Assembly (NCBI GenBank): GCA_951406725.2 | Contig: OX597829.1 | Span: 23,126,001 to 23,190,000 of the forward strand | DNA from: Octopus vulgaris | Lineage: Eukaryota | Length of the DNA: 64,000 bases | Direction of reading: 5' to 3' | Part shown: positions 9,419 through 58,008 of the stretch, piece after piece | Position numbering within the stretch: the stretch's first letter is position 1 | How the letters are laid out: each line of letters begins with the position of its first letter | The notes under the pieces: generated by a model | What the model was told of the DNA's origin: nothing | The model's database searches: none | Seen by the model: only the letters and a program-made list of their open reading frames with translations | Program-made: the position numbers and the translations under genes

Positions 9419-9862
9419 TGGTATAAAAGATGGGCTACAGCAAATATTCAGCTCAATACCACAGATTTGCTTGTCAGTTGTTTGACCTTAACCAGTTGAC
9501 CATGTCCTTAGTGGCTGACGATATGTGCATCTCTGATCATGAACAGAAGTAGTGGGGGAGCATTATATTCTTGTGTTGAGAGGAATTCTTTGGAGTTTGA
9601 ATAATTCACCTCTGGGAGCATGGGTGTATCTTTCAACATCCTTAAACAACCCTTATTTAAGAACAGTTTGATCGGGATGGGCTATTCGACCTGAAGAAAA
9701 TTCTAACTGGGCCCCGCCTGCAAGGTCATGCGCTGTTTATCTTGATATGAGATCACCATGTTGCACACATATGGTTGTGATGCATGTGCCTGGTGTACTC
9801 TTATCAGACGGGTAGTCATGTTGGGTATACTGGGCTTCGTATATTTTACCCCAGTGTCACTC
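9418..9862 (+). mobile_element. (TAA)n-anchored ~450-bp interspersed repeat (element C), possibly an R4/Dong-dependent non-autonomous element or UTR
   Basis: Inverted homologous copy at 19631-20093; both abut TAA runs. Confidence 0.7.
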
Positions 9863-9879
9863 AATAATAATAATGATAA

Positions 9880-11463
9880 TGATGAATAGCGTCAGCCTTG
9901 ACAGCGGCTGGACGTGTTCTTCGCTGATCTGACCAGTCACCAGCTGAAGACACAGAAACACTAACAGAAACACTAATGCAAAAATACACAGAACCATGAT
10001 AGGTTGCTCGATGAGAGACATACAGATGGTTTGGAAGAAGACAAAAAGCTAATGGTAACATGACAGATAAGCAAACGGATATCTACGACAGAATAAAAGC
10101 AATACTTCAGGAGAATGATAGCGACATTATTTGTAGCCTCAACAATGTGGAAATTTAACCAAGGAACGAAAAACGTGAATGAAATTCTAAAATACATCAG
10201 AACAAAAAACATCATAGAAACAAATAATTTGATCAAGTCAGCAAGTATTGTTGTAGCAGACAATGTGGGTGTTGATGCCAAGAAAATAGAATTATAATGG
10301 GAGTGACAAAAGAAAAGATCCATGGTGGAAAAAAAGAATGCAGGCAGGTTTAGATATGCTCTCGAATGACATTTCTGTGTTAAACCAAAAAGAAAAGAGG
10401 GAGGTTAAAAGCGAACAAAAACACAGGGCACTGAACAGGAAGTTTGATATTGAAAGAAAGGAGCTGAAAGCGGTAATGGGGGAACTGAAATAGTGCCTTG
10501 TTGCTAAAAAAGCAAAGATGGTAAGATACGAACAAAGAATGAAGGGATACTATCAGAAGAGGTTATTCAGTGTAGATCAGAAGAGATTCTACAAAGAAAT
10601 AAACAGTGTACAGATGAAAAGTTGATACCAGATAACATTGAAAGTCAAAGGTTTTGGAGTGACATCTGGAGCAAAGACAAGGAGCACAAGAAGTAGGCTG
10701 AATGGCTGCAAGAACTGAAACAAACAGTAGTTTATCCAAAACGGGCAGAACTAGTCATTTCAGTTAGGGAAGTGAAGGAAATCAGCAAAAAAAAATGGGC
10801 AACTAGAAGGCCCCGGGACCAGATGGAGTCCAAGGCTACTGGATCAAAAGATTTGGTGAATGTCATGCGCGAATAGTTGTACAATTCAACACCTTGTTAA
10901 ATGCCAGCCAAGTAACACCAGAGTAGTTGACAATGCGTAGGACAGTGCAGTGCTTGAAAAACATCGAAAAAGGCAATACGGTAGAAACTTACAGGCCGAT
11001 ATCCTGATTGCCACTTATGTGGAAATTATTGACTCCTTGTAGACAAAACTGTACTTAGAGATTGCAAGAGGAGGAAAACTGACTTAGCCATGTCATGGAT
11101 CGATTATGGTAAGGCGTACGATATAATCCTATTTGATATTGCATCGAATGTTGGGTGATTGTTTGGAAGAAGTATGGCGAAGTGGAGGACGGAATTGACA
11201 GCATATGGAAGAAGTTTAGGGACAATAGAAATCAGGAGAGCTATCTTCAAAGGGGACTGCCTGTCCCCACTGATCTTTGTACTGTGTATGATACCACTAA
11301 TACTGATTCTGAGGAAAGCAAAGGCTGGGTATGTATTCAAAAGCCACCAACAAAAAGTCAACCACTTGTTATTCATGGATGACATCAAACTTTAAGATAA
11401 TAATAAATCCCAAGTCAGTTCCCTCGTTGATACGGTGTATACTTTCAGTGCTGATATCAGAAT
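9880..11463 (+). pseudogene. R4/Dong-clade LINE ORF fragment (RT N-terminal half), inactivated
   Basis: KAPGPDGVQGYWIKRF (~10807), YRPIS*LPLMWKLL, LAMSWIDYGKAYD, IFKGDCLSPLIFVLCMIPL, HLLFMDDIKL; stops and frameshifts. Confidence 0.88.
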
Positions 11464-14110: not shown

Positions 14111-14315
14111 CTTTATTTAAAAGCACCAGAAAATTCAACAAAACCTGTTACTCTGAGTTTCCCGTTGCAAAAACTGTCCGATGAACGGCAACGGGAAACT
14201 CAGAGTAACAGGTTTTGTTGAATTTTCTGCTGCTTTAAATAAAACATATTACTCTACCACTGGTATTTGAGTACTCTTTTTTCCACCTTGTTTCACATTT
14301 ATGTGTTTACTCCGG
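14111..14315 (+). mobile_element. Palindromic Penelope-like mini-element (family P1) with hammerhead-like motif
   Basis: ~57-bp inverted arms plus a unique tail; motif aaaactgt-ccgatga-acggcaacgg-gaaa-ctcagag-ta-acaggtttt at 14170-14216; homologs at 40751, 44280, 49450. Confidence 0.7.
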
Positions 14316-33599: not shown

Positions 33600-34420
33600 T
33601 TGTTGTTGTTATTGTTATTATTATCACTTTTGTTTGCTTTTAATCTGCGTGTTTGATGTAATCTCTTGCCGAGTCACACCCTAGGACAAGTGAAGGTTAA
33701 GAAATGTTGAAATACAACTGAAGCCTTGTCGAGGGCAGTAGAGAAATGCCTCTAAATAATACAACACAAACGTTTAAATTGATAAGGTTTTTCTAAGGAT
33801 ATGGGCAATACTTGTCAGCACAATCTTTTGAATTTCTTTGAAACATGATTCTCCTGGGATGTTGTCTAAATGTTTCGGGCATTCCTCTTTTAATAATAAA
33901 GTCACCTACAATAACAAGAACAGTTTTTGCTTTAAGAGTCCACATCTTTTGTATTTAATATTTCAATTTCCAGGTTCTTATATTTACTAAGTTTGTTAAA
34001 TTCCTTTACAGGTATATTTTTATCAGTAGGAACTCTCACATATATTACTCTGCGAGTATTTTCTTTCCTGTCTTTAATAATTATATCTGGTCGATTATTC
34101 TGGATCTTTCTGTCAGTGTTGGCAAGAAAATCCCAGAGAATGGTGACAGTTTTACCTTCAACGACTGGCTCAGAATGATGTACATACCAATAAGGAGGAG
34201 TGCTGATTTTGTAATGTTTACATATTTTCCAATGTAAATACTCTCCTGTATGGTTTATTGTTTCGCCAAATGCGGAATCTGCATTTAGAGTCTGCACCGC
34301 TCTGGAAAACGTTAGCCTGGTAATTTCTAGAAAGCAAGCTTTGATCTTGTGCTGTCAGTCTCTGCTTTCAGTCCTGAACTTTTCAACCACTGTTGGGTGA
34401 TTGCTTAGTCTATATCAGCA
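33600..34420 (-). pseudogene. R4/Dong-clade LINE 3' part (Zn-knuckle/RLE endonuclease) with UTR ending in (TAA)n
   Basis: AQDQSLLSRNYQ, LHWKICKHY...WYVHH.EPVVE...ILWDF..TDRKI.NNRPDIII...KLSKYKNLEIEI, AHILRKTLSI*. Confidence 0.88.
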
Positions 34421-40292: not shown

Positions 40293-40441
<149 letters not shown>

Positions 40442-40538
40442 ATCCAAACAAGAAAACACAGAAAAAAAACACAGCAACGCGAGGACGTGGAACAATTAAA
40501 GTATTATTTGACGCTCAGGAAAGAAGGGCAGAAGGAGG

Positions 40539-40573
40539 GTTTAACGTTTCGAGCGGAGCTCTTCGTCGGAAAC
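40539..40573 (-). ncRNA. Minimal hammerhead-like motif in a P2 element (40437-40650)
   Basis: gttt-CCGACGA-a-gagc-tcc-gctc-GAAA-cg-TT-aaac; stem I gttt/aaac; palindromic ACGU helix III. Confidence 0.55.
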
Positions 40574-40750
40574 AAAGGAGAAGGAAAGATCCCGAGAAGG
40601 TAAGACATGGGAAAAAAATTTTTTTTGCTGGTGGTGCTCAAGAGATCACATATGTATATATATGTATATATATATATATATGTGTATATATATATACGTA
40701 TATATATGCATATATATGTATATATATATGTATATATATATATATATATA

Positions 40751-40972
40751 CTTTATTTTAAGCAGCAGAAAATTCAACAAAATCTGTTACTCTGAGTTTC
40801 TCGTTGCCGTTCATCAGACAGTTTTTGCTAGAATCTGATGAACGGCAACGAGAAACTCAGAGTAACAAATTTTGTTGAATTTTCTGCTGCTTAAAATAAA
40901 GCATATTACTCTACCACTGGTATTTGAGTACTATTTTTTCCACCTTGTTTCACATTTATGTGTTTACTACGG
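40751..40972 (+). mobile_element. Palindromic mini-element P1 with CTGATGA...GAAA motifs on both strands
   Basis: Inverted arms 40751-40817 and 40834-40901; ctgatgaacggcaacgagaaactcagagta on each strand. Confidence 0.75.
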
Positions 40973-41098: not shown

Positions 41099-42332
41099 CG
41101 AGGTGTGTTCATTAAAGATTTCCCCAGACCCACTTTCGGTTATTACAGGAAAAAGAACTTGTACAGGTATAATCATGCATGTCTCTGCATGTCACATTGT
41201 AAATTGCAGCTTTCCACTAGTATTCATTTGTCTTTTACTGCTGCTGAAGTAGACAAAGATGTTATAATGGAGGCATTTGAATGCAGATCAGTGATTTGAA
41301 AGGTTGTACGCCAAAAGAGACTTTCGATGAGATGAAAGACGTTTATGGTGACGATGCACCATCATACGACGTAGTGCTCGGATATTAGTAGAAACTACTC
41401 CTATCCCCGGATGAACACATTCCGCCATTGATGATGACACCATCCATGAAGAGGAGGCCGCCATTTTGGAGGATCACCGCGTAACTGTTCGGTAAATAAG
41501 TGAAGATAAGCGTAGAGTCCGTGTCATTCACGACCATTTGCACATGAGGAAGTTATCTGCATGATGGATTCCCCCCGAATGCTTACACCTTTTCTGAAGT
41601 AGGAACGAATCAATTGCTCCCAGGCTCTTTTGGCAATGTGCCAAGAAAACTAGGAGGTCTTTTTCGGCAGACTTATCACGCAGGATGAAACATGATACTG
41701 AGTCCAGTCGAAGCAATGGAAGCATGATAACTCACCACCTCCAAAGAAGGCTTGTGTCTAACCCTCAGCAGACAAGGTAATGCTCACAGTCCTTTGGGAC
41801 CAGCACGGAGTAGTGATGATGAAATTTCTAGCAAAGGGCACCACAATTAACGGGCATATTATGCTTCGCTGCTGCAGAAATTGCAGGAAGCCATCAAAAC
41901 AGAGGCGTGCCATGCTGACCAAAGTAGTCTGCCTTCTCCAAGACAACGCCCCAGTACACAATGTGCATCTTAGGTAAACGAAAGCACACTCCTGCAACGA
42001 TGAAATCCTTCTTCATCCCCCTTACTCTCCCGACGTCGCACCGTTTGACTTCTAGCTCTTTCCAACCATGAAGTTTTTTTTTTTAGGGGAAGCATTTTCG
42101 GATGTAAATAATGAACTTATTTCCGTGTTAAAGTCTCGCATCCAGATGCAACCTACTGAAACATACATACATACAGACGAGGCACATACATACACTGCAT
42201 ACATACAAACATACATGCATACAGTGTGTCAACATACATACGGTACATGGCTATGTTGGGAAGGATTGATAATTTCGTTTATTCCAGTTCCTGGGAAGTG
42301 GGTTGGGGGAAATTTTTAATGAACACCCCATG
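41099..42332 (+). mobile_element. mariner (DD34D-type) transposon, transposase pseudogene
   Basis: TIRs cgaggtgtgttcattaaagatttcccc / gggggaaatttttaatgaacacccc; motifs *WIP, ITQDET, KVMLTVLWDQHGVV, LQDNAPVH, HPPYSPDVAPFDF; many stops. Confidence 0.92.
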
Positions 42333-43979: not shown

Positions 43980-44232
43980 TATGTATGATGCATGAGTGTT
44001 TGTGCTAATATATACCATATATATATATATATATATATCAATAATAATAAAGGGTAAAATTAATTAATCAATTAATAATTAATAATTTTACCAAAGAGTT
44101 CGGTATGTAAAAAAAAAACATTATCGGTAACCTTATACAAAAATTCTATATAATTATAAGCATAATTATAATTAGTATGTGGTGAAGCAAATTTTTCTGA
44201 ACCCTAATTATAATTATGCTTATAATTATAGA

Positions 44233-44279
<47 letters not shown>

Positions 44280-44280
<1 letters not shown>

Positions 44281-44370
44281 CGGAGTAAACACATAAATGT
44301 GAAACAAGGTGGAAAAAAAGAGTGAGTACTCTTTTTTTCCACCTTGTTTCACATTTATGTGCTTACTCCG
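44280..44370. mobile_element. P1 tail-only palindrome inside (TA)n
   Basis: ccggagtaaacacataaatgtgaaacaaggtggaaaaaaagagt and its reverse complement back to back. Confidence 0.8.
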
Positions 44371-44481
<111 letters not shown>

Positions 44482-44558: not shown

Positions 44559-44977
44559 AAAAAATATATATAAAAATACAAAATGGGACAAGAACGCAAA
44601 ACATTCAAATAGACGATACAAAAAACGGACGGGCATTCGAAGCTTCTAATCTTCAGTCAAGAACCGGATCATCCTCGCAATTTCGGCTGATTAATCTTGA
44701 GATTGGTCCGATCTGGCCAGCCCCAAGGAAAAACTAAGCTACGAGCATTATGTTTCTTGGGAAAAGGATCGAATATATACAAAACAAGGACAGAAAAACG
44801 GACGACGTTACACGAACATACATACATATATATTAATATATTCTTTGCATGTACCACGTCCTCTCGTTGTTGCTTTTTTCTTGTCCTTTTTGCTCCGCTT
44901 CGAGCTTTCTAAGAGTGACTAAAGTTGTCAAGAACTCAACTGTCAGTGAAACACATACATATATACGTATATGTATG

Positions 44978-48765: not shown

Positions 48766-49351
48766 TATTATATATATATATACACCTAATTAATTATCTT
48801 GATCTTAACCACAAGGGAAGTTGGCCACTGAGCTAAAAAAAATGTGCATTTTGAAATTGGCAACAGTTTAAAACTATGCAATAGCAATTCACGTAAGAGC
48901 GAAATTGTAAACCGTATCTCAAAATTGGGGGTCGTACTTTACATTTTGTAACGCGAAATACTGTATTGGAGGTTGCGATCGAATCCCCAACCAGTTTTCA
49001 CAGGATCTCCTAACAATAATGTAAACTTCATATAATCGAGGCCTGAAGAGTAACTTGCAGTCTATTCTCTCGTTTGGATAATTTACTTCTTCCGAGGTTC
49101 CGCTAGCTATGAAGCATACGTAGCCTGGCTTTTATTTACTCCATTCCCTAAATTTTGGATATATATATATAAGGAGAATAGACAAAAAAAAACAACAACA
49201 AAAGAGGAAGACAGGTGGTATAGACAACAAACAGATGTAATAGTATAGCAGAAAGAAACAAGGAGAGAAAATAAAGAATGTGTAGTGGCTAGCGATCTAT
49301 CATGGCAAATACATATATATATATATATATATATATATGTGTATACATATT

Positions 49352-49682
<331 letters not shown>

Positions 49683-49844: not shown

Positions 49845-49895
<51 letters not shown>

Positions 49896-50197
49896 AGAAT
49901 TCACCAAAAAAAAAAAAAAAGACGAAGACAGGTGATATAATGCTCGGGAAGTGAAAAAGTCTTTAACGTTTCAAGCCTACGCTCTTCCGCAGAAAGGAAC
50001 ACAGAAAGAAACAAGGAGAGAACATAAAGAATGTGTAGTGGCTGGCGAATACACAGAGAGAGATAGAGAGACAGAAACAGAGAGACCAAAGACAGAGAGG
50101 GGAAAACATACTGAGTGATAGACAGATAGATGTAAAGTTAATTGAAATTCTAATAAGATTAATAAGATAATAAGATTAATAAGAATTCTAATAAGAT

Positions 50198-52310: not shown

Positions 52311-52989
<679 letters not shown>

Positions 52990-54787: not shown

Positions 54788-55496
54788 TACGGATGGCCAC
54801 AAAATCACGCACTATGGGAGATATCAAGCATGCTTTATTAGCAATGATTTAGGTAATCCATTACAAATGTTCAAAGTATTGGCCATGTGACTCTAAACAA
54901 GTGTTCATATGGAATTTGAAATTACAATGAACCCTCTCAAACAACTCTTCTTGTCATTGACTTGTTCACATGCTTCAGCAATTCTTTGAAGAAGATGTCC
55001 TTGGTCAGAAATCTTTTCAGAATACACAAGGGATTTAATGTAACCTCAGAATAAAAGTCCATTGGAGTTAAATCTGGTGTCTGTGGTGCCCATTCAATTG
55101 GCCCGCGACGCCCGAGCCATCTCCCAGGATAATGTTCATTCAGAAAATCATGAACCTGTAATTCATAATGGGGTTCCACCCCATCCTGCTGAAACCAGGC
55201 AGGATTTTCCCTTCCAAATTAATGTATGTGAGGCATTATCTTGTTGCCAAGCATGTTCAGATATGAATCACCGGTCACAGAACCTTCAAAATAAAATGGT
55301 CCAATTATTTGATTGTGCCAAATCCCACACTACACCATTACCTTGCCCCCACCTTGTTGATTATCTGCCTTCATTCAATAAGGATTGGTTTGTGAGTGAT
55401 ATCGCGAATTGTGAAAAGAGATTTAAAAAAAGAGAGAGAGAGTGTTAGCAATTTCACATACTGCATGATGGTGCGTGACTTTATGGCCACCCTGTA
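54788..55496 (-). mobile_element. Internally deleted Tc1/mariner-superfamily element
   Basis: TIRs ta-cggatggccacaaaatcacgcac / gtgcgtgactttatggccaccctg-ta; FLNEHYPGRWLGRRGPIEWAPQTPDLTPMDF (WPPRSPDL-type motif). Confidence 0.85.
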
Positions 55497-57845: not shown

Positions 57846-57924
57846 GACAAAACCACTATTTTGCAAAACAAACAAGGAAAGACTTAATCAATACATAAAA
57901 TTTTAATAAAAAGTAAAAAAACCG

Positions 57925-57967
57925 CCACTACAATTGTTTCATGTCCTGATCGACAATCTTCAGGTGG
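57925..57967 (-). ncRNA. Minimal type-I hammerhead ribozyme motif in a (TA)n-embedded element (57841-57975)
   Basis: ccac-CTGAAGA-t-tgtc-gatcag-gaca-t-GAAA-caattg-TA-gtgg: core nucleotides present, stems I-III pair, GUA cleavage triplet. Confidence 0.7.
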
Positions 57968-57970
57968 ATT

Positions 57971-58008
<38 letters not shown>

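What the first reader, a model, noticed from the sequence alone, without database searches (positions are those of the whole stretch)
14111..14315. Family P1: palindromic mini-elements with hammerhead cores on both strands
Four copies (14111-14315, 40751-40972, 44280-44370, 49450-49682), all in TA/GATA microsatellites. They share a fixed terminus (…tgtttactccgg) and an inverted duplication whose turning point differs per copy. Three carry C(U/C)GAYGA-stemII-GAAA-CUCAGAG-like-UA with stem I aaaactgt/acaggtttt. At 40751 the CUGAUGA core lies on both strands. Variable inverted ends are typical of Penelope-like insertion; no coding part is present, so this may be a non-autonomous ribozyme-bearing family.
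Basis: partly seen in the sequence, partly recalled or inferred. Interest (0 to 1): 0.7.

Follow-up and report, generated by a model that had tools for sequence, protein, structure and literature searches.

The report
Head-to-head Penelope-type ends with hammerheads
These four short hairpin-shaped repeats are real copies of a very abundant repeat carrying a predicted self-cutting (hammerhead) RNA motif, and their layout (two truncated ends joined head to head in TA repeats, one usually 71 bases longer) is the known footprint of Penelope-type jumping genes, which likely pasted them in, so this is an ordinary new family of a known kind.

Summary
The four copies exist. Each is two 5'-truncated arms of one element joined head to head through 1-4 nt of microhomology, in (TA)n/(GATA)n. 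The family has two fixed 3' ends 71 nt apart, not one. Copies 1, 2 and 4 pair a short-end arm with a tailed arm, so their termini are not inverted repeats (7-8 of 20 match); this excludes a MITE. Copy 3 is tail plus tail, with no ribozyme. Thousands of contigs from public runs show both ends and variable turning points. This is the published Penelope-like (PLE) layout. The hammerhead is a minimal type I motif: dimer-type helix III, atypical 2-bp helix II, no two-sided covariation, cleavage untested. At 40751 the core lies on both strands, but only the minus strand has helix I. In copies 2 and 4 each arm holds sequence the other lacks, favouring two cDNAs over fold-back. One run guessed to be RNA shows A>G at catalytic positions; two others do not at 5%. 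No coding partner was found, so truncated autonomous versus short non-autonomous stays open. The scan found this layout repeatedly elsewhere in this genome.

The parts
14111..14168 (-). Copy 1 short-end arm (58 nt): from inside helix II to the short end; no complete ribozyme
14167..14315 (+). Copy 1 tailed arm (149 nt); overlaps the other arm by a 2-nt GC microhomology
14167..14219 (+). Predicted minimal type I hammerhead, complete (C3 at 14178, U4 replaced by C, predicted cut after 14207)
14245..14315 (+). 71-nt optional tail between the short end (14244) and the long end (14315)
40751..40834 (-). Copy 2 short-end arm (84 nt) with a complete canonical-core hammerhead at 40776-40828 (C3 at 40817)
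40834..40972 (+). Copy 2 tailed arm (139 nt): core at 40835 lacks the 5' strand of helix I; tail 40902-40972; 1-nt microhomology
44280..44323 (-). Copy 3 arm b (44 nt), tail only, long end
44323..44371 (+). Copy 3 arm a (49 nt), tail only, long end; 1-nt microhomology
49450..49597 (-). Copy 4 tailed arm (148 nt) of a diverged subfamily; core intact at 49547-49597, helix I weakened
49595..49682 (+). Copy 4 short-end arm (88 nt), reaching furthest 5' of all arms; core at 49616, helices II and III broken by private changes; 3-nt GTT microhomology

Best explanation
Each copy is two 5'-truncated ends of one high-copy element joined head to head in a TA/GATA microsatellite, likely made by a Penelope-like reverse transcriptase-endonuclease that would nick both DNA strands, prime two cDNAs from two fixed start sites 71 nt apart and join them by microhomology; the element carries a predicted minimal hammerhead whose cleavage is untested. 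Shown: two fixed 3' ends, variable junctions with 1-4 nt overlaps, TA flanks, arms of one copy most alike, high copy number. Inferred from the PAc in vitro work: both-strand nicking and extension, and two internal start sites as the source of the tail. Inferred: the template is either a short (about 170-180 nt) non-coding derivative of a pseudo-LTR (slightly favoured, about 55%) or the end of an unseen coding element (about 45%). The hammerhead would act, as a dimer, in the source RNA. In the palindromic copies it is predicted to be buried in a long hairpin, which would be an ADAR substrate on read-through transcription.
For: Anatomy. Termini of copies 1, 2, 4 are not inverted repeats. TA runs follow the short end in the listed loose-end rows of 6 of 8 runs, and the long end in 7 of 8 runs (only the best-supported rows are shown). 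One search found 54 joints (15 shown); 19 distinct turning-point pairs could be read from its tables 5 and 5c. The nearest neighbour of each arm is its own partner in 6 of 6 arms (1-4 differences within a copy, 3-12 between copies). In copies 2 and 4 the short arm holds 5' sequence absent from the tailed arm and the tailed arm holds the tail, so neither can be a fold-back copy of the other. Literature: inverted 5'-truncated copy, optional tail, (TA)n bias (PMC8557442; PMC3846280); both-strand extension, AT-rich cuts, two internal RT starts bounding the tail (PMC11167929); minimal hammerheads with palindromic helix III in PLE repeats, sometimes on opposite strands (PMC4209133). Helix III self-dimer -7.4 kcal/mol against no fold as a monomer.
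Against: No PLE RT or GIY-YIG was linked: 263 of 263 candidate frames scanned against Pfam gave only one RVT_1 piece, from a LINE-type element, and one mariner piece. The tail is 71 nt, against 30-40 bp in the papers read. Helix II is 2 bp plus a GNRA loop and lacks the G10.1-C11.1 pair that PMC4209133 calls highly conserved in PLE hammerheads. U4 is C in many copies (26-66% by contig depth). There is no two-sided covariation in 16 pairs over 4 arms. No Rfam hammerhead family appears among the rows shown (150 of 253; 49 of 49). Copy 1 alone is compatible with simple fold-back. Target-site duplications cannot be read inside microsatellites.
Confidence: 0.88

Rival explanations
1. Single-cDNA self-priming: one cDNA folds back on itself by microhomology and copies itself, giving the palindrome (proposed for Adineta PLEs).
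For: Microhomology at all four junctions. In copy 1 the tailed arm contains all of the short arm, and in copy 3 arm a contains arm b. Self-priming is the reading of junction palindromes in PMC3846280.
Against: Copies 2 and 4: each arm holds sequence the other lacks (short arms reach -47 and -51, tailed arms -31 and -41 relative to the cut site; only the latter have the tail). A fold-back copy would also need its own reason to stop exactly at the fixed short end.
Confidence: 0.12
2. Classical retrozyme: a small circular RNA with one hammerhead per unit, copied by rolling reverse transcription into tandem units, of which these are fragments.
For: Non-coding, hammerhead-bearing, dimer-type helix III. 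Retrozymes are described as derivatives of PLE pseudo-LTRs (bioRxiv 10.64898/2026.07.22.740005). Six of eight arms stop within a 32-nt stretch of the template, as a short template would give.
Against: 0 of 4 copies show head-to-tail units. No 'goes back' joint among the 15 of 54 shown or the 4 of 4. The long end is followed by TA runs, not by the unit's 5' part. The motif is the minimal PLE type, not the canonical type of retrozymes in PMC7229834. Short contigs could hide tandems.
Confidence: 0.15
3. DNA MITE or fold-back transposon with TIRs and a TA target duplication; the hammerhead-like letters are incidental.
For: Every end abuts TA. Copy 3 has 19 of 20 matching termini.
Against: Copies 1, 2, 4 have unlike termini (7-8 of 20). 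The centre, not the ends, varies by truncation. Copy 3 is explained as tail plus tail. The full hammerhead core with three helices is present.
Confidence: 0.03
4. A purpose-built bidirectional ribozyme switch or hairpin (miRNA-like) gene selected by the host.
For: Strong hairpins, sub-threshold matches to miRNA models, A>G signal in one run.
Against: Turning points are scattered, the plus-strand core of copy 2 is incomplete, copy 4 is decaying, copy 3 has no core, and all Rfam hits over the copies are below gathering score.
Confidence: 0.02

Closest known systems
Inverted 5'-truncated pLTR insertions with optional tail of endonuclease-positive Penelope-like elements (PMC8557442 text and Fig. 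2 legend; Adineta Pen2a, PMC3846280; passages read)
   Same: Head-to-head inverted truncated copy, tail at one end only, microhomology joins, microsatellite target, hammerhead near the 3' end.
   Different: No ORF seen; arms are only 44-149 nt; tail 71 nt instead of 30-40 bp; clade not determined (Naiad is unlikely, as it lacks canonical hammerheads).
Poseidon_Ac (PAc) of the green anole (PMC11167929, parts 1-2 of 4 read)
   Same: Two fixed 3' ends downstream of a hammerhead, AT-rich target, products that fit extension on both strands.
   Different: In PAc the ORF starts inside the hammerhead; here the equivalent ATG frame hits a stop after 18-29 codons in 3 of 3 tailed arms that hold the core. 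Nothing here was tested in vitro.
Minimal PLE hammerheads (PMC4209133, parts 1-2 of 4 read)
   Same: Type I topology, conserved core, short palindromic helix III suited to dimers, high family variability, dual motifs on opposite strands.
   Different: Helix II is 2 bp with a GNRA loop instead of 6-8 bp; no G10.1-C11.1; U4 often C; helix I is longer (4 + 6 bp around a mismatch).
Animal non-LTR retrozymes (PMC7229834 passages; bioRxiv 10.64898/2026.07.22.740005 part 1 of 5 and passages)
   Same: Short, non-coding, hammerhead-bearing, presumably mobilised by PLE enzymes.
   Different: No tandem units or circle junction seen; minimal rather than canonical hammerhead.

Membership tests
EN+ Penelope-like element insertion | Inverted 5'-truncated copy joined head to head | tested here: met
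   4 of 4 copies; variable joints in contigs
EN+ Penelope-like element insertion | Optional tail (two fixed 3' ends) | tested here: met
   Two ends in the window and in contigs; length 71 nt, longer than the 30-40 bp described
EN+ Penelope-like element insertion | AT-rich or microsatellite target | tested here: met
   8 of 8 ends abut TA or GATA runs (copy 3 has one extra dinucleotide at each end)
EN+ Penelope-like element insertion | Hammerhead motif in the terminal repeat | tested here: met
   Complete motif in 2 arms, core in 5 of 8 arms
EN+ Penelope-like element insertion | Linked ORF with telomerase-like RT and GIY-YIG endonuclease | tested here: inconclusive
EN+ Penelope-like element insertion | Partial tandem (direct pLTRs) | tested here: inconclusive
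   0 of 4 copies; arms too short to show it
Type I hammerhead ribozyme | Core C3-U4-G5-A6-N-G8-A9, G12-A13-A14, A15.1-U16.1, H17 | tested here: met
   11 of 12 invariant in 4 arms, U4 often C; H17 is A
Type I hammerhead ribozyme | Helices I, II and III can form | tested here: met
   85.5% of cells paired against 28-43% when slid (structure derived from these sequences); intact in copy 1 tailed arm and copy 2 short arm; helix III as a dimer
Type I hammerhead ribozyme | G10.1-C11.1 pair closing helix II (highly conserved in PLE minimal hammerheads) | tested here: not met
   A opposite G, A or U
Type I hammerhead ribozyme | Compensatory covariation | tested here: inconclusive
   0 of 16 pairs change on both sides, 1 on one side; only 4 close sequences
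Type I hammerhead ribozyme | Self-cleavage | not testable with these tools
   Contigs cannot show RNA ends
Non-LTR retrozyme | Head-to-tail tandem units, each with a hammerhead | tested here: not met
   0 of 4 window copies; no such joint among those shown; arrays elsewhere not excluded
Non-LTR retrozyme | Circular unit-length RNA | not testable with these tools
   No raw RNA reads offered
DNA MITE | Fixed terminal inverted repeats | tested here: not met
   7, 8 and 7 of 20 terminal matches in copies 1, 2, 4; 19 of 20 only in copy 3
DNA MITE | TA target-site duplication | tested here: inconclusive
   Cannot be read inside TA runs

The most novel reading that the evidence does not exclude
P1 is a dedicated 170-180 nt non-coding parasite of a Penelope-like element, among the smallest of its kind, with an active hammerhead stripped to a 2-bp helix II. 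Its head-to-head copies are written by two reverse transcriptases from two start sites that both stop near the RNA's 5' end. Read-through of these copies makes hairpins in which ADAR edits the catalytic A14 and A15.1 and the cleavage-site A17, switching the ribozyme off.
Probability: 0.2. Interest if true: 0.5.

Novelty: new member of a known kind. Interest (0 to 1): 0.22.

Why it matters
As it stands this is a family-level annotation: a very abundant PLE-type repeat. Its modest value is as a natural data set. Because the arms are short and the two start sites are 71 nt apart, thousands of junctions could separate the two-cDNA model from self-priming for PLE insertion, which published work leaves open. 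The reduced helix II tests how small a natural hammerhead can be. If the editing signal holds, it links PLE insertion geometry to ADAR action on a ribozyme core; a search for hammerhead ribozyme + ADAR + editing + Penelope found 0 papers in the held library.

Tried and rejected
Rfam: no hammerhead family among the rows shown; only sub-threshold miRNA-like hairpin models over the copies. A 23-nt tail stretch found 0 matches in metagenome and genome contigs. A degenerate core pattern found 0 in viral and genome contigs and 1 in metagenomes, L001, which is a chance match inside a bacterial coding region. The upstream extension is not elsewhere in the window (4 matches at 2 mismatches against 11 expected). 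Pfam on 263 of 263 frames found no PLE protein; the RT piece at 11159-11392 is LINE-type and unlinked. No RNA holder on record was listed; RNA labels are guesses. Depth profiles could not show 5' truncation, because edge effects are similar at both ends. Clustering of junctions near the predicted cut site among the 19 readable joints was not accepted: only a part is shown and short arms are favoured anyway. An ORF start at the last ATG of the tail (MCLLR; two synonymous differences among copies) is too thin to claim. Sequence look-ups in the scan's notes found nothing for this family. Core conservation among window copies alone is not significant when U4 is counted (p 0.19; 0.045 without it).

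Full report
Observation. blastn of the four copies against the window finds these four and no others: 14111-14315, 40751-40972, 44280-44371, 49450-49682. All lie in TA or GATA runs. Aligning the arms in one orientation shows one element read as: short upstream piece, hammerhead-like motif, AATAAAG, then a 71-nt stretch ending in CTCCGG. Copies 1, 2 and 4 join an arm that ends at AATAAAG (short end) head to head with an arm that carries the extra 71 nt (long end). Copy 3 joins two long-end arms of 44 and 49 nt and has no ribozyme. Junction overlaps are 2, 1, 1 and 3 nt (up to 4 nt in copy 4 if the upstream letters seen are counted). The termini of copies 1, 2 and 4 match at only 7, 8 and 7 of 20 positions, which rules out terminal inverted repeats.

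Family-wide view. Public runs hold the sequence: 21 of 24 listed rows, under five coded organism labels. Laying contigs gave 11,912, 5,106, 525 and 153 hits on copy 2 and 6,833, 3,988, 1,737 and 363 on the tailed arm of copy 1. Among the loose-end rows shown, TA runs follow the short end in 6 of 8 runs and the long end in 7 of 8. One search lists 54 joints (15 shown); 19 distinct turning-point pairs are readable. So both fixed ends and the variable centre hold beyond this window. Upstream, loose ends agree on 11-13 more letters and then lose agreement (0.51-0.79), often near an ATATAT. That fits a natural 5' limit or many different junctions; contigs cannot tell which. Earlier notes of the scan call this genome an octopus; I did not check that.

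The ribozyme. A loose descriptor hits the window 6 times against 0.56 in shuffles (max 3 of 100). Three hits are P1 arms. In four arms, 11 of 12 core bases are invariant and U4 alternates with C. Helix I is 4 + 6 bp around one mismatch. Helix III does not fold alone but self-pairs at -7.4 kcal/mol, the dimer design described for PLE hammerheads (PMC4209133). Helix II is odd: 2 bp closed by a GNRA loop, with A opposite G, A or U where G10.1-C11.1 is expected. Engineered hammerheads with helix II cut to one G-C pair cleave well (PMC544870, passages), but those keep that pair. The five common DNA variants that the contig tables list inside the motif fall at the helix I mismatch, the loop 3 centre, the GNRA N, position 11.1 and U4: 4 of 5 in 7 tolerant positions of 52, p about 6e-4. 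The classes are my own and the tables are incomplete, so this is support, not proof. Against: no two-sided covariation, weak conservation statistics in the window alone (p 0.05-0.19), and no Rfam hammerhead among rows shown. Only the copy 1 tailed arm and the copy 2 short arm are intact. The plus-strand core of copy 2 has lost the 5' strand of helix I. In any read-through RNA the arms are predicted to pair with each other (-92 to -123 kcal/mol) and bury the motif.

Mechanism. The layout matches EN+ Penelope-like elements: an inverted 5'-truncated copy, a tail at one end only, microsatellite targets (PMC8557442, passages; PMC3846280, passages). The purified PAc protein cuts AT-rich DNA, extends both strands and starts reverse transcription at two internal sites that bound the tail (PMC11167929, parts 1-2 of 4). 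Applying this is inference. Two facts in the window favour two cDNAs over fold-back. Each arm is most like its own partner in 6 of 6 cases, so both come from the same or a closely related template. In copies 2 and 4 each arm holds sequence the other lacks, so neither is a copy of the other. Copies 1 and 3 fit either model.

Autonomous or not. No PLE protein lies in the window: 263 of 263 candidate frames gave one LINE-type RT piece and one mariner piece, a weak test on decayed DNA. All eight arms are 44-149 nt. Six of them stop between 51 and 20 nt upstream of the predicted cut site although they start 71 nt apart; memoryless truncation gives that at most 0.3% of the time. The window was chosen after the fact and arms within a copy are not independent, so this is a hint. 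It points to a template-set stop: a short RNA, or a stall at the ribozyme fold. I put a short non-autonomous template at about 55%. Retrozymes are reported to derive from PLE pseudo-LTRs (bioRxiv 10.64898/2026.07.22.740005), but no tandem unit was seen here.

Editing. Run X12 (RNA by guess) shows A>G at 14197, 14198, 14207 and 14208 in 3.1, 5.2, 10.9 and 10.2% of contig depth (10-23 contigs each), and T>C at 14231 in 1.8%, against at most 0.07% in three other runs (one guessed DNA, two of unrecorded kind). These sites are A14, A15.1, A17 and A1.1 of the motif. All four have U or A on the 5' side, the metazoan ADAR preference (bioRxiv 10.1101/2020.01.19.911685, passages), though 4 of 4 is not significant alone (p 0.12). 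Against: X16 and X10, also RNA by guess, list no such change at the 5% threshold, there is no matched DNA, and earlier notes report A>G-rich PLE copies fixed in this genome's DNA (unchecked), so an expressed mutated copy could give the same signal. Editing of young inverted repeats is in any case the common situation in animals.

Novelty. The kind is published, and the scan recorded the same layout for other families in this genome. This sequence family was not in the scan's index, and a search for octopus + Penelope + hammerhead returned no paper describing it in the listing. Repbase and Dfam could not be consulted, and no supplements were read; they may already name it. Verdict: new member of a known kind, interest 0.22. 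Points that lift it slightly are the 71-nt tail, the reduced helix II, the two-cDNA evidence and the unreplicated editing signal.

Noticed in passing
window 40430-40640, minus strand, core at 40569: Another short element in TA runs with a minimal hammerhead-like motif (CCGACGA...GAAACGTTA), unrelated in sequence to P1, 110 nt from copy 2.
   Followed up: partly
window 49890-50050, minus strand, core at 49992; related piece at about 49190-49310: Hammerhead-like variant (CTGCGGA...GAAACGTTA) in a TA-flanked element; a related copy nearby lacks the motif.
   Followed up: partly
window 57850-57975, minus strand, core at 57963: Minimal hammerhead-like motif with a palindromic helix III, starting directly after a TA run.
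   Followed up: partly
window 44560-44800, minus strand, core at 44656: TA-flanked element with a degenerate hammerhead-like core (CTGAAGA...CGAATG) beside copy 3.
   Followed up: no
window 44040-44238: AT-rich element just left of copy 3 with an apparent internal inverted duplication (ATAATTATAAGCATAATTATAATTAG and its reverse complement), also in TA runs (by eye).
   Followed up: no
window 9600-11420, plus strand: Decayed LINE-type RT (RVT_1, E 3e-4, below Pfam's cut-off) with many stops; looks R2/R4-like by recalled motifs.
   Followed up: partly
window 41762-41974 (+), 54937-55218 (-), 33932-34354 (-), 52409-52795 (-): Mariner transposase piece (PF01359); by eye and from memory also a Tc1/mariner-like piece, a restriction-like endonuclease piece and a CR1-like end.
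   Followed up: no
window 14234 and 14238 (loose ends): Contigs from three runs show a diverged subfamily that shares the tail but differs upstream, in the helix I 3' strand region.
   Followed up: no
window 44278-44279 and 44372-44373: Both ends of copy 3 carry the same extra dinucleotide before the TA run, unlike the other long ends in the window.
   Followed up: no
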